From Candidatus Micrarchaeota archaeon (GTDB lineage: Archaea > Micrarchaeota > Micrarchaeia > Anstonellales > JAHKLY01), in the NCBI GenBank assembly GCA_020854825.1, contig JAHKLY010000002.1, positions 1-64,000 on the forward strand: a stretch of 64,000 nucleotides of DNA. Direction: 5' to 3'. Under the pieces are notes generated by a model, which saw only the letters and a list, made by a program, of their open reading frames with translations, had not been told where the DNA came from and searched no databases. The translations under genes were made by a program, and so were the position numbers. Below, piece after piece: positions 961 to 62,028 of this stretch; the first letter of the stretch is position 1, and the number at the start of each line of letters is the position of its first letter.

Positions 961-1169
961 GCCGAGGTGGCGGAACCTGGTAACGCGCACGACTTGAGTA
1001 ACTTTTCTTTTCTTTTGTAAAAGAAAAGAAAACTTAACTAAAGAAAAGAAAACTTGTAGTAATCGTGTGGTCTTTGACCTTGGGGGTTCAAGAACTTTCT
1101 TCTCTTTTGAAAAAGAGAAAAAATTTTACTAAAAAGAGAAAACAAGATGAACAAATCCCTCCTTCGGCG
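961..1169 (+). tRNA. tRNA-Ser(TGA) with two introns (37/38: 999-1061; 58/59: 1092-1154)
   Basis: Acceptor GCCGAGG/CTTCGGC with G73, anticodon stem CACGA/TCGTG with CT-TGA, long variable arm GGTC-TTT-GACC, T arm GGGGG-TTCAA|AT-CCCTC. GTTC/GAAC forms the central helix at the second intron. Confidence 0.92.
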
Positions 1170-3497: not shown

Positions 3498-3699
3498 GCG
3501 GGGGTGGCGGAGTCTGGTCAATAACCCTTTTCCACTTTGTGTGTAAGATGTTAACGGAAAATCGTTGACTAATCGCGCACGGTTGAGGGCCGTGTGGTTT
3601 AGTACCTGCGCGCGTTCAAACACTTTTTTCTTTTTTAAGAAAAAAGAAAAACCTGTACTAAAAAGAAAAAAACAGGAAGAATAAATCGCGTCCCCCGCA
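3498..3699 (+). tRNA. tRNA-Leu(GAG) with two introns (21/22: 3522-3572; 58/59: 3620-3684)
   Basis: Acceptor GCGGGGG/CCCCCGC with A73, D stem GCGG/TCGC restored after splicing, CACGG-TT-GAG-GG-CCGTG, T arm GCGCG-TTCAA|AT-CGCGT. BHB-like helices GGTC/GACT and GTTC/GAAT. Confidence 0.92.
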
Positions 3700-5157: not shown

Positions 5158-5183
5158 AATCTAAGATTATTAGATTTATAACT

Positions 5184-5465
5184 GGGGGAGTAGGTTAACC
5201 TGGTATGCTGCCAGCTTGGGGTAACCTTTTTCTTTCTTTTTAAAAAAGAAAGAAAAACGTTAACGAAAAACAAAAGAAAATAAAAAAACATTAAACTCAA
5301 AAGAAAAAGAGGTTCAAAATTAGAAATTTTGAACAGATTTTTACCAAAGATAAAAAACAAAAGAAAATAAAAGAAACACAGAAAAGAAAAACGTTAACAA
5401 ATTTGTGATGTAATTTTTATGGTTCTGAAATGCTGGTGATCCGAGTTCAAATCTCGGCTCCCCCA
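5184..5465 (+). tRNA. tRNA-Pro(GGG) with a 209-nt intron at 37/38 (5222-5430)
   Basis: Acceptor GGGGGAG/CTCCCCC, CCAGC-TT-GGG-G|T-GCTGG, T arm CCGAG-TTCAAAT-CTCGG. Full BHB: TTGG/CTGA central helix, AACC/GGTT outer helix, two 3-nt bulges. tRNA-Pro after rpoN is a usual archaeal arrangement. Confidence 0.93.
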
Positions 5466-5516
5466 TTTTGAATAAGGGGTTTTCTATATGAAAACTAACT
5501 GAAGAGAGGTAATAAC

Positions 5517-22184: not shown

Positions 22185-22320
22185 TGGACCAGGTGGGATT
22201 TTTAGGCAACCTATTCTCTCTTTTTCGTAAACGTTTTTCTCTTTTTTAAAAGAGAAAAGGTTTGAACCCACAGTCCCCTCGTTGCGAACGAGATATCCTA
22301 CCGGGTTAGACCACTGGCCC
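22185..22320 (-). tRNA. tRNA-Ala(CGC) with ~62-nt T-loop intron (~22200-22261)
   Basis: Reverse complement gives GGGCCAG/CTGGTCC with G3:U70, TCTCG-TT-CGC-AA-CGAGG, GTGGG-TTCAA|AT-CCCAC. The BHB is relaxed, so the exact junction is uncertain. Confidence 0.9.
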
Positions 22321-22639: not shown

Positions 22640-24115
22640 TTGAATTTTTTAGATCCTGATTCTGAAAATTCATTACCTAACCAGATTTATTTAAGTATAT
22701 TAGATAATTTGGATGAAATCTTAAAACCTGAAAAGTTAAAAGAGGTTTTAGGATATTATAAAAAAGAAGGTATTCTAAGTAAAATCACAATTGATGATTT
22801 AAAATCAGATATAGATATGCAAAGTGTTAGTTTAAGATTAAAATCACAACTAGAACCTAGTGAAAAAAAATCTAGTGAAGATGTTTCTAAAGCATCTAAT
22901 AATATGGAAGTTAACAATAAGAAAGAAGAAATTTATATTCCTGTTTCATCATTATTTAAATTTTGTAAGGAATTAGGAATTGATTTAAGGGAAGATAAGG
23001 CAGGAGGATATATTAGAGGAGAATCATTGGAAGATATTGAAATATTAACTAAAATCCTCACGTTTTTAAAAAGAACCTTGAAAAGAGATCCTTCTAAAAA
23101 CGATCTAAAAATGTATGGGTTACCAGAAAATTTAGAAATAAATCCTAAAGAAGTTGATGCTGTAAAAGAAAATATTGCTCCAAATAAAAAACCAATAAAT
23201 TCAAATAATAATTCACAACACAGAGTAAATAAACCAGATGATATTAAAGAAGGAAGAGTAAAAACTCCCCAGATAAAAGGTAAAGATAAGATTAAAGATA
23301 AGATTAAAGATAAGATTAAAGATAAGATTAAAGATAAGATTAAAGATAAGGTTAAAGATAAGATTAAAGATAAGATTAAAGATAAGATTATACCAGAATA
23401 TAAGATTATACAAGAATTAATTAAATATTATAAAATGGGAATTATATTTAGGTATACAAACCAAATATTAAAAGAGAATATATCTTTATATAGATTAATT
23501 AATCAAAAAATTAAGCCTCCTGAGGATTTTAAGGGCACTAAATTAGAGTATATTTATGGAGAATTACAATTATCAAATGAATATGCAACAGAACTTGAAA
23601 GGATTACAGGTAAACGTAAAGCAAAGGTTAGAAATAAACCTATTAAAAATAATGAAAACACAGAAGAATTTTTAAAACAAAGATTAATTGAGTATTACAA
23701 TCAGGGATTTGTATTTACAAATTTATTACAAATTAAAAAGATAGCAAATGATAAATATTTGTATTATAAATTTAGATCATATGCGAGAGCTTCAAACAAA
23801 AAAAGTATAAAACTATTAGAAGAAATGTATGAAAAATTAGGAATTTTAGAAGGATATAAAAATAAGGATTTAAGTGTAAATACATCATCATCAAAAGAAG
23901 AAAGAATTATTAAATCATTAAATCAACATTTTTCAGCAGGAACGATTTTTACTACTAGTATATCTATGCGTAAAAAAGACCCTTTACATTGGGGTAGAGT
24001 ATATAATAAGTATAAATTACCTAAAGAGTATCCAGGCAATAGATGGGAATATTTTTATGAAAAAGCTGGATTATTAGAAGAATACAAGAAGGTTTTAAAC
24101 GAAAGAACAAATTAA
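22640..24115 (+). CDS. Hypothetical protein with (KDKI)9 repeat; start uncertain
   Basis: 491-aa ORF with three loosely repeated C-terminal units (L..YY..G.IF.......Y....LE..Y..LG). Confidence 0.7.
   Translation: MNFLDPDSENSLPNQIYLSILDNLDEILKPEKLKEVLGYYKKEGILSKITIDDLKSDIDMQSVSLRLKSQLEPSEKKSSEDVSKASNNMEVNNKKEEIYIPVSSLFKFCKELGIDLREDKAGGYIRGESLEDIEILTKILTFLKRTLKRDPSKNDLKMYGLPENLEINPKEVDAVKENIAPNKKPINSNNNSQHRVNKPDDIKEGRVKTPQIKGKDKIKDKIKDKIKDKIKDKIKDKVKDKIKDKIKDKIIPEYKIIQELIKYYKMGIIFRYTNQILKENISLYRLINQKIKPPEDFKGTKLEYIYGELQLSNEYATELERITGKRKAKVRNKPIKNNENTEEFLKQRLIEYYNQGFVFTNLLQIKKIANDKYLYYKFRSYARASNKKSIKLLEEMYEKLGILEGYKNKDLSVNTSSSKEERIIKSLNQHFSAGTIFTTSISMRKKDPLHWGRVYNKYKLPKEYPGNRWEYFYEKAGLLEEYKKVLNERTN
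23282..23389 (+). repeat. 12-bp in-frame tandem repeat AAAGATAAGATT x9
   Basis: Directly visible; one unit has GTT; encodes KDKI/KDKV. Confidence 0.95.
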
Positions 24116-56133: not shown

Positions 56134-57603
56134 ATGAATGAGGAGGAATTTATTAAAGGAATTTTAGATAAAGGAATGCGATTAACCCCAGAAGCATCAA
56201 AGTTGATTTTAGAAGTAAAAGATAAAGAAAAAATTCTTGATAATTTAATAAGAGAAGGATTTACAATAATAACTAAAGAAGATTTAGAATCAATTATCGC
56301 AGAATATGAAAAAATTCCAGAGCCAGAAGTTGAAATTAAAAGAAAAAACTCTTTTGAACCAATAGCAAAAGATTATGCTTTTAATATTAGAGTTTATCCA
56401 GATAAAGACATAACAAACAATTCAAGATGCACTGGAAAACCTGAAGATTTTGTTATGTATTTTAGAAGTAGGTTATTAATGACTAAATCTGTTTTATCTG
56501 AGCGTATCGGTGAAACACCAATAATTAGAATTAATGAATTAAAAACAAGAAACAATTCAGATGTTAGATTAATAGGTATGGTTATTGATAAAAGAGATTC
56601 ACAAAAAGGAAATTTAATAGTTGAAATTGAAGATGAACAAGAAGTATGTTTAGTTATTATGATGAAAAGTGATGAAAATGTATATGCTTTAGCAGATCAA
56701 ATTGTATTAGATGATATTTTATTATTTGAAGGAAGAGTTTATAATGGAATTTTAATAGCAAAAGAAATTATTTGGCCAGATATACCTATAATGAGGAATA
56801 AAAAAACAATAGAAGAGGATCTAGCTGTTGCTTATTTATCAGATCTGCATGTTGGGAGTAAATTATTTATGGAAAAAGAATTTAACAAATTCTTAGATTG
56901 GATAAATGGGAATGGAGAAGATAAAGAGTTAGCAGGTAAGATAAAGTATATTAGTATTTCTGGAGATATAGTTGATGGGATAGGAATTTATCCTAGACAA
57001 GAAGATGAATTAGTAGTTAAAGATATTTATAAACAATATGGAATTTTTATGGATTTAATGGAGAAAATACCAGATTATATTAAAGTTATTGTAAGTCCAG
57101 GAAATCACGATGCAGTAAGAAGAGCACAACCTCAACCACAGTTACCTAAGGAATTACTTAATGGAAAAACATTAAATGTTGGTAGTCCTTCTTGGATTGA
57201 TTTAGAAGGATTTAAACATTTAATTTACCATGGGGATTCACTTGATTCAATAATTTCTTCTTTATCAAATTGTGATCATACTCATCCGGAAGTGCCTATG
57301 ATAGAACTTTTAAAAAGAAGGAATTTATCTCCAATTTATGGAAGGAATCCAATTGTTCCTGAAAAAAAAGATTATCTATTCATTGATCAAATACCAGATG
57401 TTTTACATATGGGACATGTACATAAAAATGGATACTCTTTGTATAGAGGAACACATATAATTAATTCAGGAACATTTCAAGAACGTACAAATTTTCAAAT
57501 AAAACAAGGACATATTCCAACTCCGGGCATAGTGCCAATTTTATGTATGAAAACTGGAGAGGTAGTGCATAAAAAATTTGTAGCTGGTGTTAATTATGGT
57601 TGA
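56134..57603 (+). CDS. polB: DNA polymerase D small subunit DP1
   Basis: SDLHVGS, GDIVDGIGIYP.Q, PGNHDA, YHG, HMGHVH, NSGTFQ. Confidence 0.96.
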   Translation: MNEEEFIKGILDKGMRLTPEASKLILEVKDKEKILDNLIREGFTIITKEDLESIIAEYEKIPEPEVEIKRKNSFEPIAKDYAFNIRVYPDKDITNNSRCTGKPEDFVMYFRSRLLMTKSVLSERIGETPIIRINELKTRNNSDVRLIGMVIDKRDSQKGNLIVEIEDEQEVCLVIMMKSDENVYALADQIVLDDILLFEGRVYNGILIAKEIIWPDIPIMRNKKTIEEDLAVAYLSDLHVGSKLFMEKEFNKFLDWINGNGEDKELAGKIKYISISGDIVDGIGIYPRQEDELVVKDIYKQYGIFMDLMEKIPDYIKVIVSPGNHDAVRRAQPQPQLPKELLNGKTLNVGSPSWIDLEGFKHLIYHGDSLDSIISSLSNCDHTHPEVPMIELLKRRNLSPIYGRNPIVPEKKDYLFIDQIPDVLHMGHVHKNGYSLYRGTHIINSGTFQERTNFQIKQGHIPTPGIVPILCMKTGEVVHKKFVAGVNYG

Positions 57604-60600
57604 AATTACAAAAAAAATGGAAAATTATTTTAATATGCTTGAAATGTATTTAAATAAAGAATATACTATTGCACAAAAAGCTAGAAAAAAAGGATTAGAT
57701 CCAAAAACGGAAGTAGAAACTAAATTTGCACAAGATGTTGCAGGAAGAGTTGAAGGATTAGTAGGTCCGGAAGGAATTGCAGAAGAAATTAGAATTTTAG
57801 AAAACCAAGGAATGCAAAGAACAATTATTGCATATGAAATTGTAAAAAAATTAGTGAATTTAAATAAAGAAAAAGGAGTTGAAAAAGCAATTGATCAAGC
57901 TGTAAGAACAGGAGTTGCTATTTTAACCGAAGGAGTATTAGTTGCACCAACAGAAGGAATAGGAGGATTAAAAATAAATCAAAATCCGGATGGTACTGAT
58001 TATTTATCTATATATTTTTCAGGACCTATTAGAAGTGCAGGAGGGACAATTGCAGCATTAAGTGTAGTATTAGCAGATGTTGCAAGAAGAGAAGTTGGAA
58101 TTAAGGATTATAGACCAACAGATACGGAATTAGATAGATATGTTGAAGAAATAACTATTTATGATGCAAGAGATTCACGATTACAATATATGCCAACAGA
58201 ACAAGAAATAAAAACAATTGTAAAAAATTGTCCTGTTTGTATTGAAGGAGATCCAACAAGTAAATTTGAAGTTGCAGTATATAGGAATATGGAAAGAATA
58301 AAAACAAATAGATTAAGGGGAGGTATGGCATTAGTTATAGGAGAGGGAATAGCACAAAAAGCACCAAAAGTTTTTAAATATACAAAACAAATTGGATTAG
58401 ATTGGGATTGGATTGAATCAATTATGAAAGTTAAATCATCAAGCAAAGGAACTGTTGAAATAAAACCAATAAATACATATATAAGTGAAATACTTGCAGG
58501 AAGACCTATTTTTTCATATCCTATGGTAAAAGGAGGATTTAGGTTAAGATATGGAAGAACAAGAATAAGTGGTATAATGGCCAAATGTATTCATCCTGCC
58601 ACTATGGAAATTTTAGATGAATTTCCTGCAATAGGTACTCAATTAAAAATCGAAAGGCCGGGAAAAGGGTGTATTGTTTTGCCTTGTGATTCAATAGATC
58701 CACCTATTGTTAAACTTACTAATGGAGATGTAATTAGAGTTAATTCTATACAAGAAGCAAAACAATTGAAATCCCAAGTAGAAGAAGTATTATTTTTAGG
58801 AGATATGTTAATTACAATTGGGGATTTTATAAAATCAAATCATCCATTAATACCAGGAGCTTTTTGTGAAGAGTGGTGGGATGTAATTTGTGAATCTAAA
58901 AATTGTAAAATAAAAGAGGATTTTGATGTTTATGATGCATTTGAATTTTCAAAAGAAAATGAAGTTCCTTTACATCCGAGATATCTTTATTTTTGGGGGG
59001 ATATAAGTTCTACGCAATTAAAAGAATTATCAGAAGAAATAGTAAACGCAGAAATTGAATTTGAGTCATTAGGTATTTTAGGTAAAATTTCTAATTTCAA
59101 ATTATCAACAGAAAACAAAAAAGTTAAAAGAACATTAGAGGAATTAGGAGTAATACATAGAGTTAGAGAAAATAAAATAATATTAGATCCAGAAACTGCA
59201 TATTCTGTTTTAACTACATTAGGAATAAAAAATGGTAAAGACCTTTCATTAGATAAATTCAATAAAGTTTGGGATGAGGACAAAAAAGTTTTGGAAATGT
59301 TGAATGAATTATCTGGAATAGAACTTAAAAATAAAGCACCCATATATATTGGTTCAAGAATGGGCCGTCCTGAAAAAGCTAAAGAAAGAGAAATGACTCC
59401 AGATGTTAATGTTTTATTTCCATTAGGACATATAAGCAAACACAGAGATATTATTAAAACATATAATGAATTAAAAGAAAAAACAAAAGATAGGGGAATA
59501 AAAATAGAAATCTCGAGAAGAAAGTGTAAAGAATGCGGGAAAATAACTTTTTATAATTTATGTGATTGTGGGAGTGAAACAGAACCTCAAAAAATATGTT
59601 CGAAATGTGGGAGAGAAATAAAGGTAGGGGATGAATGTCCTTGTGGAGGAAAGGTTTGTATTTATGATTCAAGATCCATTAATATTGTAAATATATTGGA
59701 TGAACTAAAAGAAAGAATTGGGAATAAATTACCAGATAAAATAAAAGGAGTAAAAGGATTAATTAATAGCTCAAAAATACCTGAAAGACTTGAAAAAGGA
59801 GTATTTAGATCAAAATATGGATTATCTTGTTTTAAAGATGGGACTTCTAGATTTGATTTTACAGATGCACCTATGACTCATTTTAAACCAAATGAAATTG
59901 GAGTTTCAGTTGAAAAGATAAAAGAATTAGGATATAAACATGATTATTTAGGAAAAGAAATAACAGACGGAGATCAAGTTATTGAAATGTTTCCTCAAGA
60001 TTTTATTGTTTCTGAAGATGGAATAAAATTTTTTATTAAAACAGCCAATTTTGTAGATGAGATATTAGTATATTTATATCATTTACCTCCATATTATAAT
60101 ATTAAGACGCATGAAGATGTAATTGGTCATTTGACAGTTATACAATCCCCCCATACTTCTGCTGGAATTTTATCAAGACTTATTGGGTATACAAAAGGAA
60201 GAGTTGCATATATGCACCCGTATTTAGTTTGTGGTACAAGGAGAAATTGTGATGGAGATGAAAATTGTTTTATGGTTTTAATGGATGTGTTGTTGAATTT
60301 TTCAAGAAGCTACTTACCTGAAACAAGAGGGGGAACTATGGATATTCCAATTGTTTTAACTACAATCTTAAATCCTAAAGAAGTTGATGATGAAGTTCAT
60401 GTAATGGAAGCAATAAATAAACTTCCCTTAGAATTTTATGAAAAAACGGAATTATTTGAAAACCCAAGTAATCTTAACTTAGAATTAATTGAAAATAAGT
60501 TAGAAAAACCAGATAAGTATGAAAATATATATTTTACACATGATGTTTCTAATATAAATCTTGGACCAACAAGAACTACTTATGTTCAATTTAAGAGTAT

Positions 60601-60994
60601 GAAAGATAAAGTTGGTGCACAATTTGAGTTACATAAAAAGATAAGAGCAGTTGATGCAGTTGATGCAGCTGAAAAATTAATTTTGAGTCATTTTATACCA
60701 GATCTTTATGGTAATTTAAGAAAATTTTCACAACAAACTTTTAGGTGTGTAAATTGTAATGAGAAATATAGGCGGGTTCCTTTAATTGGTAAATGCAGAA
60801 AATGTGGTGGAAAAATTGTTTTAACTGTATATCAAGGAGGAGTAACTAAATATCTTAAATTATCTCAAGAAATGGCGCAAAAATATGATTTGCCTATTTA
60901 TCTTAAACAGCGCCTTGAATTATTAGAAAAAGATATTGCAAGTATTTTCGTAGACGAAAAAGCCCCGCAAGTCTCACTTTCTGAATTTATGTAA
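57596..60994 (+). CDS. polC: DNA polymerase D large subunit DP2 (no intein)
   Basis: TEGV..AP.EGI, GPIRSAGGT, GFRLRYGR, FKDGT.RFD, RRNCDGDE, C-terminal Zn finger. Confidence 0.97.
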   Translation: MVEITKKMENYFNMLEMYLNKEYTIAQKARKKGLDPKTEVETKFAQDVAGRVEGLVGPEGIAEEIRILENQGMQRTIIAYEIVKKLVNLNKEKGVEKAIDQAVRTGVAILTEGVLVAPTEGIGGLKINQNPDGTDYLSIYFSGPIRSAGGTIAALSVVLADVARREVGIKDYRPTDTELDRYVEEITIYDARDSRLQYMPTEQEIKTIVKNCPVCIEGDPTSKFEVAVYRNMERIKTNRLRGGMALVIGEGIAQKAPKVFKYTKQIGLDWDWIESIMKVKSSSKGTVEIKPINTYISEILAGRPIFSYPMVKGGFRLRYGRTRISGIMAKCIHPATMEILDEFPAIGTQLKIERPGKGCIVLPCDSIDPPIVKLTNGDVIRVNSIQEAKQLKSQVEEVLFLGDMLITIGDFIKSNHPLIPGAFCEEWWDVICESKNCKIKEDFDVYDAFEFSKENEVPLHPRYLYFWGDISSTQLKELSEEIVNAEIEFESLGILGKISNFKLSTENKKVKRTLEELGVIHRVRENKIILDPETAYSVLTTLGIKNGKDLSLDKFNKVWDEDKKVLEMLNELSGIELKNKAPIYIGSRMGRPEKAKEREMTPDVNVLFPLGHISKHRDIIKTYNELKEKTKDRGIKIEISRRKCKECGKITFYNLCDCGSETEPQKICSKCGREIKVGDECPCGGKVCIYDSRSINIVNILDELKERIGNKLPDKIKGVKGLINSSKIPERLEKGVFRSKYGLSCFKDGTSRFDFTDAPMTHFKPNEIGVSVEKIKELGYKHDYLGKEITDGDQVIEMFPQDFIVSEDGIKFFIKTANFVDEILVYLYHLPPYYNIKTHEDVIGHLTVIQSPHTSAGILSRLIGYTKGRVAYMHPYLVCGTRRNCDGDENCFMVLMDVLLNFSRSYLPETRGGTMDIPIVLTTILNPKEVDDEVHVMEAINKLPLEFYEKTELFENPSNLNLELIENKLEKPDKYENIYFTHDVSNINLGPTRTTYVQFKSMKDKVGAQFELHKKIRAVDAVDAAEKLILSHFIPDLYGNLRKFSQQTFRCVNCNEKYRRVPLIGKCRKCGGKIVLTVYQGGVTKYLKLSQEMAQKYDLPIYLKQRLELLEKDIASIFVDEKAPQVSLSEFM

Positions 60995-61046
60995 AATTTA
61001 CTTTTGTAAATTTGACATATTTACAACAGAGTTGTAAATCATGTGA

Positions 61047-61119
61047 TAACCTTTTTCTTTCTTTTTAAAAAGAAAGAAAAACGTTAACGAAAAAGAAAAG
61101 AAACAAAAAGAAAGAAAAA
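61047..61119 (+). repeat. Free-standing copy of the tRNA-intron hairpin/mirror-repeat element
   Basis: TAACCTTTTTCTTTCTTTTTAAAAAGAAAGAAAAACGTTAACGAAAAA matches 5222-5270 except for one A in the central run; no tRNA exons flank it. Confidence 0.88.
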
Positions 61120-61227
61120 TAAAGGAAAAAAATAAAACTTTAATGAAAAAGAGTATTTTAGTAGAGTTATAAAAAAGAAATTAAAAGCAACAAAAGAACT
61201 TTCTGATTTAGCAAATGAGATATTAAG

Positions 61228-61485
61228 TTAATCATCGTTTTTCATGCTTTCTAATGCGCTTAAAATAGTCCAAATTTGAGTTCTTGCATGTGAAGGAATA
61301 TTTATATCTTCTGCTATCTCTTCAAGAGAATAAACAACTGCGCCAATTTTTAAAGTAGCATCTTCATTTGTTTTTAATCTTTTTTTAGCATCTGTAATTG
61401 TTTTTCTAATATTTTTTGGAATAGAAGTATCTTCTTCAATTTCATCCATAATATCTATAATATCATTAAGATTAATTTCTGTCAT
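61228..61485 (-). CDS. UPF0147 family protein
   Basis: EDTSIPKNIR....A...L....LEEI..D.N.P.HART.IW...S.LE. Confidence 0.9.
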   Translation of the reverse strand: MTEINLNDIIDIMDEIEEDTSIPKNIRKTITDAKKRLKTNEDATLKIGAVVYSLEEIAEDINIPSHARTQIWTILSALESMKNDD

Positions 61486-61510
61486 ATTCACCACCCTCAC
61501 AATTAATAAG

Positions 61511-61719
61511 CGGGCCTGGAGAGATTTATTTGTTTATTTCTTTTCTTTTTAGTTGAGTTTTTTATTTTCTTTTTTAAAGAAAAGAAAAAAGTCATTGAAC
61601 TCTCGACCATCAGCTTAGAAGGCTTACGTGATATAGTTTTCTTTTTTGGAAAACGTAGCTTTTTTCTTTTACAAAAGAAAAAAGATCGTGCCGCTCTGTC
61701 CAAGCTGAGCTACAGGCCC
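61511..61719 (-). tRNA. tRNA-Arg(TCT) with two introns (29/30: 61624-61688; 58/59: 61526-61594)
   Basis: Reverse complement gives GGGCCTG/CAGGCCC with G73, GCTC/GAGC, GCA|GC-CT-TCT-AA-GCTGA, GAGAG-TTCAA|AT-CTCTC. Confidence 0.9.
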
Positions 61720-61779
61720 ATTAATTGTATAATCTTATTTGTATAACCATTTAAAAAGGTTCTTTTGCATTTATATTAT

Positions 61780-62028
61780 ATGGCAGAAGCAGGATTTGCA
61801 CAAAAGAAAAAACAAGATATTATGAAAAATATAATCAAATGCCCTAAATGTAGCGCAGATAATGCAGTAGGTGCATTAAGATGTGGGAGATGTGGATATT
61901 CATTTGTAAAACCTGAAGAAGAATTCACAAAAGAGGAGGATGAGAAAAAGAAATGTCCTGTCTGCAGTGAAGATAATTTAAAAAGCGCAAAAGAATGCAA
62001 ATACTGTGGTTATAAATTTCATGTTTAA
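61780..62028 (+). CDS. Double zinc-ribbon protein
   Basis: Two KCP.C...N...A..C..CGY.F units. Confidence 0.8.
   Translation: MAEAGFAQKKKQDIMKNIIKCPKCSADNAVGALRCGRCGYSFVKPEEEFTKEEDEKKKCPVCSEDNLKSAKECKYCGYKFHV

What the first reader, a model, noticed from the sequence alone, without database searches (positions are those of the whole stretch)
61047..61119. Free intergenic copy of the tRNA-Pro intron module, 56 kb from the tRNA
Seen: about 48 nt starting exactly at the intron's first base (TAACC...) match 5222-5270 with a single-A indel, continuing AAAAGAAA after one mismatch, plus an extra AAAAAGAAAGAAAAA at 61105-61119. It sits between the convergent DP2 and UPF0147 genes with no tRNA exons. 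A partial BHB-like closure is possible: TGT-GA|T-AAC with GTT-ATA at 61166-61171. Inference: the match beginning at the splice junction fits recent movement of the element, either reinsertion of an excised intron or a DNA repeat that seeds introns.
Basis: partly seen in the sequence, partly recalled or inferred. Interest (0 to 1): 0.88.

Follow-up and report, generated by a model that had tools for sequence, protein, structure and literature searches.

The report
Triplex-type hairpin repeat shared with tRNA introns
The stretch is a real copy, outside any tRNA, of a short structured DNA repeat that in this tiny archaeon and its relatives forms the start of many tRNA introns and also sits just after genes, which makes it a candidate for the element that creates such introns.

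Summary
Confirmed. Window 61047-61103 matches the first 58 nt of the tRNA-Pro(GGG) intron (5222-5279) with one mismatch and one indel. It lies between convergent DP2 and UPF0147 genes, has no tRNA exons, and an independent metagenome contig bridges it.

It is not unique. A covariance model finds 40 loci in this 0.83-Mb genome: 29 at the 5' edge of tRNA introns and 11 outside tRNAs (6 after ORFs, 5 of them abutting the stop codon; 4 after tRNA 3' ends).

The module is a closing segment, a pyrimidine arm, its purine complement, a self-complementary linker, and a second purine tract that mirrors the first. That is an intrastrand-triplex layout.

Copies turn over between two congeneric genomes: free copies and a T-loop intron are present or absent, and one intron carries a different subfamily. 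Identical arms occur in 29 other archaeal assemblies, beside or inside tRNA and rRNA genes.

No reverse transcriptase or HUH transposase was found; the splicing endonuclease is the broad-specificity epsilon2 type.

Best reading: a non-autonomous DNA repeat that survives in gene flanks and, where it can be spliced out, as introns. This copy is a sibling of the intron module, not a reinserted excised intron. How it spreads and what it does remain unknown.

The parts
57587..60994 (+). DNA polymerase II large subunit (DP2) gene. Its stop lies 52 nt upstream of the module.
   Evidence: ORF list; Pfam PolC_DP2_N, central and catalytic domains, E 1e-104 to 9e-128; distance.
61015..61044 (+). Small hairpin just upstream of the module. 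It is not conserved in the congener.
   Evidence: RNA fold. The G001 sequence at the same place has two arm mismatches (by eye).
61047..61051 (+). 5' closing segment TAACC. TAAC pairs with GTTA at 61083-61086.
   Evidence: DNA and RNA folds. The equivalent closing pairs covary in 47 distinct copies from other assemblies: 97.9% paired, 53 double changes.
61052..61066 (+). Y arm: 15-nt polypyrimidine tract.
   Evidence: Hairpin covariation across 28 genome copies: 95.1% paired, 10 of 14 pairs changed on both sides, 0 of 500 shuffles as high.
61067..61081 (+). R1 arm: purine tract, the Watson-Crick complement of Y. The hairpin 61047-61086 has DNA dG -11.5 kcal/mol, z -3.5.
61082..61089 (+). Linker CGTTAACG, an 8-nt perfect palindrome.
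   Evidence: Linker self-complementarity is conserved in other assemblies: 85.8% paired, 33 double changes, 0 of 500 shuffles as high.
61090..61103 (+). R2: second purine tract, an imperfect repeat of R1 with one extra A between the two Gs.
61105..61119 (+). R3: third purine tract, a perfect copy of R1. R1 is its own mirror image here, so mirror and direct repeat cannot be told apart at this copy.
   Evidence: (15 of 15 in both orientations).
61228..61500 (-). UPF0147 gene, convergent with DP2.
61511..61719 (-). tRNA gene with two introns, each carrying a module-like hairpin (T-loop copy at 61533-61594). Probably Arg(TCT), read by eye.
   Evidence: Sequence; weak Rfam tRNA match; covariance-model hit.
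5184..5467 (+). tRNA-Pro(GGG) gene with a 209-nt intron (5222-5430). The module occupies 5222-5283.
   Evidence: ARAGORN with introns allowed; sequence; covariance-model hit. BHB by inspection only: AACC/GGTT, TTGG/CTGA, bulges GG|T and AA|T.
5299..5367 (+). Interior of the tRNA-Pro intron, homologous to the sequence that follows another free module at G000 C5:38423-38491.
   Evidence: blastn-short: 89.9% over 69 nt, E 2.8e-17.
999..1148 (+). Two further module copies in one tRNA (probably Ser(TGA)): anticodon-loop intron 999-1058 and T-loop intron 1092-1148.
3620..3677 (+). Module in the T-loop intron of a long-arm tRNA. The orthologous intron in the congener carries a different module subfamily.
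22208..22263 (-). Module in a T-loop intron.

Best explanation
61047-61119 is one member of a dispersed family of ~60-nt non-coding structured repeats. Each copy has five parts. First come a few closing bases plus CC. Then comes a 12-16-nt polypyrimidine arm (Y), then its purine complement (R1) so that the two form a near-perfect hairpin, then an 8-nt self-complementary linker. Last is a second purine tract (R2) that is the mirror image of R1. This is the layout of a purine-motif intrastrand triplex. The family is duplicated and lost at the DNA level on the time scale of species divergence. Copies persist where they do little harm. One such place is immediately 3' of ORFs, where the module's own T-R-R start often serves as or abuts the stop codon. 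Another is beside tRNA genes. The third is inside tRNA and rRNA genes, where the hairpin sits 0-3 nt after the 5' splice site and the broad-specificity epsilon2 splicing endonuclease can remove it as an intron. The DP2/UPF0147 copy is therefore a sibling of the tRNA-Pro intron module, not a spliced-out intron put back. At this site it may, as a secondary role, help stop the two convergent transcripts, since T-runs are met first from either direction. What is shown: family membership, structure, distribution and turnover. What is inferred: DNA-level spread, intron seeding, triplex formation and any terminator role.
For: Family. The covariance model built from 28 copies finds 43 hits, which are 40 loci, in the 828-kb genome. 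By flank inspection 29 lie in tRNA genes (17 T-loop or T-arm, 6 anticodon-loop, 6 D-loop) and 11 are free. The nearest relatives of the 61047 copy are the tRNA-Pro intron copy (94%) and a free copy after Hsp70 (90%).

Structure. The Y:R1 hairpin is 95.1% paired, with 10 of 14 pairs changed on both sides and 0 of 500 shuffles as high. R2 is a mirror of R1, not a direct repeat. Among 81 instances with a purine core of at least 10 nt, the mirror reading scores better in 59, the direct reading in 5, and 17 tie. Among unique asymmetric pairs the count is 43 vs 5 (binomial p=1.4e-8). Mirror copies are perfect in 44 of 81, direct copies in 8 of 81.

Position. 5 of 6 ORF-adjacent free copies start within 3 nt of the stop codon. 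So do 3 of 3 ORF-adjacent copies in relatives.

Turnover against congener G001 (about 80% nt identity in flanking genes):
- The module is absent after Hsp70, where the ORF runs 16 codons further.
- It is absent after the thermosome gene.
- A T-loop module intron is present in G001 tRNA-Pro(TGG) but absent in G000.
- The orthologous T-loop intron at window 3620 carries another subfamily in G001.
- The tRNA-Pro(GGG) module is kept in place, with compensatory arm changes.

Breadth. The model hits 13 of 61 genomes of the order. An exact pattern of 40 specified bases gives 48 matches in 29 other archaeal assemblies whose loci have 30-57% GC. In G034, 3 of 3 fetched copies follow intact intron-less tRNAs.

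Enzymes. EndA is a 414-aa protein matching the ARMAN-2 epsilon2 enzyme 4fz2 at E=2e-136 over its full length. RtcB is present.
Against: No mobilising enzyme was identified. Y1_Tnp and RVT_1 are not found, and other transposase families were not searched. None of the 11 G000 free copies has a target-site duplication above chance. The Hsp70 and thermosome sites in G001 are too diverged to show clean empty sites, so loss in G001 is not excluded. The exact conservation of the arms across assemblies of very different GC content, together with the stop-codon adjacency, could reflect a selected function rather than mobility. Triplex formation is inferred from sequence symmetry only. The well-supported closing pairs and the linker mini-hairpin needed for the triplex turn share a column and cannot both form at once. 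All context classes were assigned by eye from flanks. No RNA data exist.
Confidence: 0.6

Rival explanations
1. The module is primarily a functional 3'-end element: a bidirectional oligo-T terminator or a transcript/DNA-structure insulator. It would be kept by selection after ORFs and tRNAs, and the copies in introns would be secondary or co-opted. On this view similarity reflects constraint more than movement.
For: The module lies between convergent genes. The pyrimidine arm comes first from either direction: 60 Y-first vs 17 R-first hairpins genome-wide. 8 of 9 ORF-adjacent copies abut the stop codon. Many copies directly follow the tRNA discriminator base, in G000 and in other lineages. The arms are identical in assemblies with 30-57% GC. 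The congener's DP2 contig ends at the module's start, so the copy may be conserved there.
Against: Only 6 of about 783 long ORFs carry it. Copies after Hsp70 and the thermosome gene are missing in the congener. No module is found after DP2 in the 10 other-family loci searched. 29 of 40 copies lie inside tRNA genes, where termination would be harmful. T runs of 5 or more occur 3.3 times per kb on the sense strand of ORFs, so T5 alone cannot terminate efficiently. No hairpin-plus-U-tail terminator is detected. Termination needs neither the mirror-image R2 nor the covarying closing pairs.
Confidence: 0.2
2. An excised tRNA-Pro intron, linear or circular, was reinserted through an RNA intermediate: ligation into another transcript, reverse transcription, then recombination.
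For: The similarity starts at the intron's first base. 10 of 11 free copies in G000 are in the sense orientation of the upstream gene. EndA and RtcB are present.
Against: Only 58 of 209 intron nt are shared, and the 3' splice-site part is missing. No RVT_1 match was found in a 97.6% complete genome. Free copies follow intron-less tRNAs in G034. In other assemblies, copies abut tRNA 5' ends in antisense orientation. Several copies elsewhere are flanked by 15-48-nt duplications of the target, a DNA-level signature.
Confidence: 0.08
3. The copy belongs to an unrecognised tRNA or other stable-RNA gene, for example a split or permuted tRNA half.
For: Most tRNA genes of this genome escape standard detection: only 7 Rfam matches pass the cut-off. 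Module copies do occur in rRNA in other assemblies.
Against: There is no tRNA match at E<=10 on either strand within 60700-61500. The flanks are a protein stop codon region and A-rich spacer. No GGT-type partner for a BHB occurs downstream.
Confidence: 0.03
4. Chance low-complexity similarity, or an assembly artefact.
For: The genome has 28% GC, and A- and T-rich tracts are common.
Against: 57 of 58 positions are identical, including the non-repetitive closing segment and the palindromic linker. The pattern has 0 matches in 100 shuffles. A contig from another sample bridges the site colinearly.
Confidence: 0.01

Closest known systems
Transposed tRNA intron families of Thermoproteales (Sugahara 2008; Fujishima 2010). 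I saw these only as cited in PMC4090602, PMC3239211 and section 2.5 of bioRxiv 10.64898/2026.10.13.758758.
   Same: Near-identical intron sequences occur in different tRNA types and at different positions within one genome. Introns are gained between close relatives. The host has a broad-specificity splicing endonuclease. The mechanism is unknown and presumed to act on DNA.
   Different: Here the lineage is a small DPANN-type archaeon with an epsilon2 EndA. The shared unit is a defined ~60-nt structured module at the intron's 5' edge. The same unit also occurs outside tRNA genes (after ORFs, beside tRNAs, in rRNA) and in many assemblies under different taxon labels. The passages I read do not mention non-tRNA copies.
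Intrastrand triplex motifs of bacteria: PIT / TMECO, purine-motif classes I and II (Holder et al. 2015, PMC4666352). I read the abstract, sections 15 and 16, and found passages.
   Same: The layout on a single strand is the same: pyrimidine tract, loop, purine tract, loop, second purine tract. Both are multi-copy and intergenic, and both are associated with rearranged or variable loci between close strains. No function has been assigned.
   Different: TMECO is G/C-rich with 9-nt stems and a 3-nt second loop, and it is found in proteobacteria. This family is A/T-rich with 12-16-nt stems and an 8-nt self-complementary linker, and it has extra covarying closing pairs. It is archaeal, and most copies are embedded in tRNA introns. 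Triplex formation was shown in vitro for TMECO but has not been tested here.
REP/BIME elements and MITEs of bacteria and archaea (recalled knowledge, no call).
   Same: Short, non-coding, palindromic, multi-copy elements, often just downstream of genes, where they can act as terminators or mRNA stabilisers.
   Different: No RAYT/Y1 transposase was found. There are no terminal inverted repeats with target-site duplications at the G000 copies. REPs are not known to be spliced out of stable RNAs.
Archaeal BHB introns in rRNA and protein-coding genes (as described in PMC5829648 and PMC4090602, passages read).
   Same: The same splicing machinery can remove insertions from RNAs other than tRNA. Module copies occur in 16S and 23S rRNA genes and within a GatE-like coding region in other assemblies.
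   Different: Splicing of those copies is not shown, and the free copy at 61047 lacks a BHB.

Membership tests
Archaeal BHB tRNA intron | Lies between two exons of a tRNA (or other stable RNA) gene | tested here: not met
   No tRNA match at E<=10 near 61047. The flanks are the DP2 3' region and A-rich spacer.
Archaeal BHB tRNA intron | Bulge-helix-bulge, or a relaxed form, at both boundaries | tested here: not met
The minimum-energy fold shows only the local hairpin. No GGT/GGTT partner occurs downstream.
Archaeal BHB tRNA intron | Excised from the transcript | not testable with these tools
   No RNA run is listed for this organism.
Transposed intron family (Thermoproteales type) | At least 80% identical sequences in introns of different tRNA types and positions in one genome | tested here: met
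   Identical or near-identical modules occur in T-loop, D-loop and anticodon-loop introns of different tRNAs.
Transposed intron family (Thermoproteales type) | Intron presence/absence between close relatives | tested here: met
   The T-loop intron of tRNA-Pro(TGG) is present in G001 and absent in G000.
Intrastrand triplex motif, purine-motif class (Holder 2015) | Pyrimidine tract, its Watson-Crick purine complement, and a second purine tract able to lie antiparallel to the first (mirror repeat), all on one strand | tested here: met
   Hairpin covariation. Mirror vs direct: 59 vs 5 of 81 instances; 43 vs 5 unique pairs, p=1.4e-8. At 61047 the arm is symmetric, so this copy is compatible but not informative.
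Intrastrand triplex motif, purine-motif class (Holder 2015) | Short loops (1-6 nt in the ITxF definition) | tested here: inconclusive
   The first loop is 0-8 nt. The second spacer has a median of 7 nt and is self-complementary. At 61047 the perfect third tract lies 23 nt after R1.
Intrastrand triplex motif, purine-motif class (Holder 2015) | Triplex forms physically | not testable with these tools
   The folding tools model Watson-Crick pairs only.
REP / MITE | Short, non-coding, multi-copy, palindromic | tested here: met
   40 loci; hairpin.
REP / MITE | Cognate HUH (RAYT / Y1) transposase, or terminal inverted repeats with target-site duplication | tested here: not met
   PF01797 is not found. 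No flanking direct repeats above chance at any of the 11 free copies. Other transposase families were not searched.
Intrinsic transcription terminator | G+C-rich hairpin followed by a U tract (bacterial type) | tested here: not met
   0 sites in 60800-61400. The hairpin is followed by A-rich sequence.
Intrinsic transcription terminator | Oligo-T tract on the non-template strand just after the gene (archaeal type; definition recalled) | tested here: inconclusive
   T5-C-T3-C-T5 lies 57 nt after the DP2 stop, and T-runs face UPF0147 as well. But T runs of 5 or more occur 3.3 times per kb inside ORFs, and the same tract sits in 29 tRNA introns.

The most novel reading that the evidence does not exclude
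The module is a sequence-conserved, triplex-forming DNA element of DPANN-type archaea, and it is the actual vehicle of BHB intron birth. It inserts beside or inside tRNA, rRNA and occasionally protein genes. Wherever its hairpin base can complete a relaxed bulge-helix-bulge with the flanks, the epsilon2 endonuclease splices it out, turning a selfish DNA repeat into an intron. The free copies, including 61047, would be the same element caught outside a spliceable context.
Probability: 0.35. Interest if true: 0.9.

Novelty: new variant of a known kind. Interest (0 to 1): 0.8.

Why it matters
How archaeal tRNA introns arrive is an open question. A 2026 census of Asgard introns ends with 'how they arrive remains open' (bioRxiv 10.64898/2026.10.13.758758, abstract and section 2.5). 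For Thermoproteales the transposition mechanism is called unknown (PMC4090602, passage read).

This case offers a defined, easily recognised unit found both as the 5' part of introns and as free DNA copies. There are intron and free-copy presence/absence differences between two congeneric genomes. The same arms occur in 29 further assemblies. That makes the question testable by population metagenomics, by gain/loss mapping, and by phylogenetic profiling for a mobilising protein.

The mirror-repeat architecture also predicts a physical structure, an intrastrand triplex, that can be checked with oligonucleotides. Such motifs were so far studied mainly in bacteria.

There is a practical side too. 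The module breaks assemblies and hides most tRNA genes of these genomes from standard annotators.

Tried and rejected
1. Antiparallel Watson-Crick pairing of Y with R2, as an alternative helix that would close a BHB. On alignment A2 it was no better than shuffled or slid controls: 85.1% paired, 67 of 500 shuffles as high, and a slide of -2 gave the same value. It was rejected in favour of the mirror relation.

2. It is not in the MFE or centroid fold.

3. Target-site duplications at the 11 free copies. The longest flanking direct repeats are 5-8 nt, and all are matched by 15 to 200 of 200 shuffles.

4. Bacterial-type terminator scan: 0 sites.

5. RNA evidence. No RNA holder is listed among the 6 runs that hold the stretch, so expression, 3' ends, splicing and circles could not be examined.

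6. Empty site at the DP2 locus. The congener's contig ends at the module start. UPF0147 was not found in G001 with this protein query or by DNA, so the far side could not be joined.

7. Module after DP2 in other families. nhmmer at E<=0.01 found none in the 11 loci L002-L012. These loci reach about 1.5 kb beyond the match, so the region was probably covered, but I did not check this locus by locus.

8. Viral carriers. The exact pattern has 0 matches in IMG/VR contigs. Only the exact main-subfamily pattern was tried.

9. Prior description in print. I found no paper with the sequence words (21 papers, none on archaea or this element, judging by listing and abstract starts) or under DPANN / repeat / tRNA introns / palindromic / Altiarchaeota (listing only). 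The library lacks most subscription journals. Fujishima 2010 and Sugahara 2008 were not readable here. Supplementary tables were closed, including the ARMAN tRNA lists of PMC3239211 and the ITxF tables of PMC4666352; they might list related introns or A/T-rich archaeal triplex motifs.

10. A complete multi-intron tRNA annotation of the genome was not attempted. Context classes rest on reading the flanks.

Full report
OBSERVATION. The stretch is as described. Window 61047-61103 aligns to 5222-5279 with one mismatch and one single-A indel: 96.6% over 58 columns, E=1.3e-20, and 57 invariant columns of 61. The match starts at the T that is the first intron base of tRNA-Pro(GGG). ARAGORN, with introns allowed, calls that tRNA at 5183-5466 with a 209-nt intron. 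The junction is ambiguous by one base because a T flanks both ends. By inspection the intron ends can form a canonical motif (helices AACC/GGTT and TTGG/CTGA, bulges GG|T and AA|T), but the minimum-energy fold prefers the local hairpin. The core pattern occurs twice in the window and never in 100 shuffles.

The copy lies 52 nt after the stop of DP2 (57587-60994, +) and 124 nt before the end of the convergent UPF0147 gene (61228-61500, -). A permissive Rfam scan of 60700-61900 gives no tRNA match near it. A contig from another sample (run X6, record 15) covers both sides with exactly the expected 79 letters between. Contigs of three other runs stop at the repeat.

ANATOMY. The copy has the following parts:
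- TAACC, of which TAAC pairs with GTTA in the linker.
- A 15-nt pyrimidine arm Y (61052-61066).
- Its perfect purine complement R1 (61067-61081), with no loop between them.
- The palindromic linker CGTTAACG (61082-61089).
- A second purine tract R2 (61090-61103).
- A third tract R3 (61105-61119), identical to R1.

As DNA, the hairpin folds at -11.5 kcal/mol, z = -3.5.

CENSUS IN THE GENOME. The genome is 828 kb in 7 contigs, 28% GC, and rated 97.6% complete. nhmmer found 35 loci at E<=0.01. A covariance model built from 28 copies found 43 hits, which are 40 loci after removing 3 antisense self-hits.

Reading the flanks gives these contexts:
- 29 loci lie inside tRNA genes at the 5' edge of introns: 17 T-loop or T-arm, 6 anticodon-loop, 6 D-loop.
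- 6 loci follow ORFs: DP2, Hsp70, thermosome, an Lhr-like helicase, ribosomal protein S10, and a 105-aa ORF.
- 4 loci follow tRNA 3' ends.
- 1 locus (C4:107256-107309) lies 5 nt upstream of a tRNA-Met, antisense to it.

Five of the six ORF-adjacent copies start within 3 nt of the stop codon. In two of them the module's own TAA is the stop. Ten of the eleven free copies have the orientation of the upstream gene.

Only 7 Rfam tRNA matches pass the cut-off in the whole genome. Nearly all tRNA genes here are interrupted, as was reported for ARMAN-2, where 56% are disrupted and T-loop introns occur (PMC3239211, passages read).

STRUCTURE IS SELECTED. Across the 28 aligned copies the Y:R1 hairpin is 95.1% paired. 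10 of 14 pairs change on both sides, no shuffle of 500 reaches this, and slid controls reach at most 75.6%.

The second purine tract follows the arms from subfamily to subfamily. I first took it for an alternative Watson-Crick partner of Y, but that is not supported. It is instead the mirror image of R1. Among 81 instances from G000 and relatives with a purine core of at least 10 nt:
- The reversed R1 matches better than R1 itself in 59, worse in 5, and equally in 17.
- Among unique asymmetric pairs the count is 43 against 5 (binomial p=1.4e-8).
- Perfect mirror copies number 44 of 81; perfect direct copies number 8 of 81.
- The 24 cores with an internally asymmetric G pattern give 22 against 2.

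No simple copying error produces a mirror repeat. A hairpin plus a mirror-image purine tract on one strand is the definition of a purine-motif intrastrand triplex, and the complementary strand then has the pyrimidine-motif layout (Holder et al. 2015, PMC4666352, introduction passages and section 15). Whether the triplex forms is an inference.

At 61047 the arm is symmetric, so this copy fits but does not discriminate.

TURNOVER BETWEEN CONGENERS. G001 is in the same genus, with about 80% nucleotide identity in flanking genes.
- At DP2, its contig ends exactly at '...AACC', the module's start. This looks like an assembly break at the repeat, so the copy is probably shared.
- After Hsp70 the module is absent and the ORF runs 16 codons further.
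- After the thermosome gene it is absent and another gene is present.
- The tRNA-Pro(GGG) intron keeps a module at the same place with compensatory changes in both arms, and its purine-plus-linker unit is tandemly amplified.
- The orthologous T-loop intron at window 3620 carries a different subfamily in G001.
- tRNA-Pro(TGG) has a ~69-nt T-loop intron consisting of the module in G001 and none in G000, while their shared D-loop module intron is almost identical.
- Another free copy (C5:38423-38538) shares 69 further nucleotides with the interior of the tRNA-Pro(GGG) intron (89.9%). Introns and flank elements therefore exchange more than the hairpin.

WIDER DISTRIBUTION. The model hits 13 of 61 sampled genomes of the order at E<=0.001, or 6 of 40 high-quality ones. 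Counts per genome are G001 31, G004 10, G040 9, G034 7, G007 6, G037 4, G005 2, and 1 in each of 5 other genomes.

In the loci I fetched, contexts read by eye were:
- G001: 26 intronic and 5 free of 31. One free copy has a stop codon of an ORF of at least 103 codons inside the module.
- G004: 8 intronic, and 2 after tRNA 3' ends, of 10.
- G034: 3 of 3 after intact intron-less tRNAs (3 of its 7 hits were fetched).
- G040: 3 after tRNAs, 2 at ORF stops, 2 intronic, and 3 other, of 10.
- G007: 3 intronic and 1 inside a 23S rRNA gene, of 4.

All five of these genomes encode a full-length epsilon2-type EndA.

An exact pattern with 40 specified bases found 48 matches on 47 contigs of 29 further assemblies. 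Their record titles name Altiarchaeota (9 assemblies), Micrarchaeota or Norongarragalinales (3), Diapherotrites or Iainarchaeum (2), Pacearchaeota (1), 'Methanobacteriota archaeon' (2), or just 'archaeon' (12). Locus GC ranges from 0.30 to 0.57. These titles are the submitters' labels.

By eye, the contexts of the 48 matches were as follows:
- At least 14 sit at the 5' edge of tRNA introns.
- 11 sit directly after tRNAs.
- 6 abut tRNA 5' ends in antisense.
- 1 is in a 16S rRNA gene.
- 2 are in the 5' coding part of a GatE-like gene.
- The rest are unresolved.
- Several are flanked by 15-48-nt duplications of the neighbouring sequence.

In these 47 distinct sequences, the three bases before CC pair with linker positions 3-5 in 97.9% of cells, with 53 double changes; slid controls reach at most 42.6%. 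The linker is also self-complementary: 85.8% paired, 33 double changes. These columns were not fixed by the search pattern. The two pairings share a column, so they are alternatives. One extends the hairpin. The other makes the tight turn that would place R2 against R1.

MECHANISM: WHAT IS SHOWN AND WHAT IS INFERRED. Shown:
- It is a structured repeat family.
- It has a mirror-repeat layout.
- It sits at intron 5' edges and in gene flanks.
- It differs between congeners.
- It is widely distributed.

Inferred: it spreads as DNA and gives rise to introns. Several points favour this:
- The free copy carries only the 5' 58 nt of a 209-nt intron.
- There is no RVT_1 match.
- Free copies stand beside intron-less tRNAs.
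- Flank duplications occur in other lineages.

Several points leave it open:
- There is no Y1/HUH transposase.
- There are no target duplications at the G000 copies.
- Other transposase families were not searched.
- There are no clean empty sites.

The splicing side is plausible. EndA is a 414-aa protein matching the ARMAN-2 epsilon2 enzyme over its full length (4fz2, E=2e-136). That enzyme type cleaves relaxed motifs (PMC5829648, PMC3239211, passages read). RtcB is present. In T-loop introns the exon GTTC can pair with a GAAC or GAAT near the intron's 3' end, with three-base bulges on either side and the module hairpin directly after the 5' bulge. I saw this by inspection and did not test it statistically.

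WHAT THE COPY AT 61047 DOES. A terminator or insulator role between the convergent genes is possible. Pyrimidine-first hairpins outnumber purine-first ones 60 to 17, and each polymerase would meet a T-run first. Against a primary terminator role:
- Only 6 of about 783 long ORFs have the module.
- T runs of 5 or more occur 3.3 times per kb within ORFs.
- Most copies sit inside tRNA genes.
- There is no hairpin-plus-U-tail.
- Termination needs neither the mirror tract nor the covarying closing pairs.

The stop-codon adjacency (8 of 9 ORF-adjacent copies) remains unexplained. It could come from selection for a minimal 3' region in a 91%-coding genome, from the module's T-R-R start acting as the stop after insertion into a dispensable C-terminal tail (as the Hsp70 comparison suggests), or from a function of a structure placed right after the stop.

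One lead comes from memory only. In antisense copies just upstream of tRNAs, the RNA would read U-rich, U-rich, A-rich, then tRNA. This resembles the triple-helix 3' ends made by RNase P cleavage in some eukaryotic long non-coding RNAs. I did not test this.

COMPARISON AND NOVELTY. Intron families shared between tRNAs are known from Thermoproteales. Intrastrand triplex repeats are known from bacteria. REP-like hairpins after genes are common. What I did not find described is one element that is all three at once: an A/T-rich triplex-type repeat that forms the 5' part of tRNA and rRNA introns and also stands free beside genes, conserved in sequence across many DPANN-labelled assemblies. I rate it a new variant of known kinds.

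LIMITS. Context classes were read by eye. There are no RNA data. Only one congener was available. Taxon labels are submitters' titles.

Noticed in passing
G000 C1:36950-37400 (-), locus L028; G000 C4:107520-107700 (+), locus L029; G001 locus L052: Downstream of several tRNA genes there are 2-3 tandem units. Each unit has a T-run, a small T/A hairpin, and a longer hairpin whose outer stem and tail repeat the tRNA's own 3' acceptor end, followed by another T-run. They look like acceptor-stem minihelix mimics, or like repeated duplications of the tRNA 3' end. Module copies follow them.
   Followed up: no
whole genome G000: Only 7 Rfam tRNA matches pass the cut-off, and ARAGORN with introns finds 11 genes, in a genome rated 97.6% complete. 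Nearly every tRNA gene seems to carry 1-3 introns, most often in the T-loop.
   Followed up: partly
G000 C1:3685-6369 (+): RtcB matches in two pieces (profile positions 1-50 and 46-426) about 1.35 kb apart within a single 937-aa open frame. This suggests an intein in the RNA ligase.
   Followed up: no
L086 (G007:C46), L135 (CAZEGI010000005.1), L095 and L128: In other assemblies, module copies lie inside a 23S rRNA gene, inside a 16S rRNA gene, and about 18 codons into a GatE-like coding sequence. In L128 a decayed duplicate of the gene's first ~48 nt lies upstream of the module.
   Followed up: no
L081 (G040:C2), L100, L107, L122, L089: Module copies flanked by direct duplications of 15 to about 35 nt of the adjacent tRNA or other sequence. 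These resemble long target duplications or fork-restart products. None were seen at the G000 free copies.
   Followed up: partly
G000 C3:138906-139010, locus L022: Right after the thermosome-associated module there are six tandem copies of a 16-nt A-rich unit, followed by another purine-tract-plus-linker fragment. In G001, the purine-plus-linker unit of the tRNA-Pro intron is tandemly amplified at least four times.
   Followed up: no
window 23269-23402: A perfect 12-nt tandem repeat of about 10 units (family D1). Its context was not examined.
   Followed up: no
window 5184-5221: The tRNA-Pro(GGG) 5' half has almost no D-stem pairing that I could find by eye. This recalls the single-pair D-arm reported for ARMAN-2 tRNA-Pro (PMC3239211, figure legend read).
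   Followed up: no
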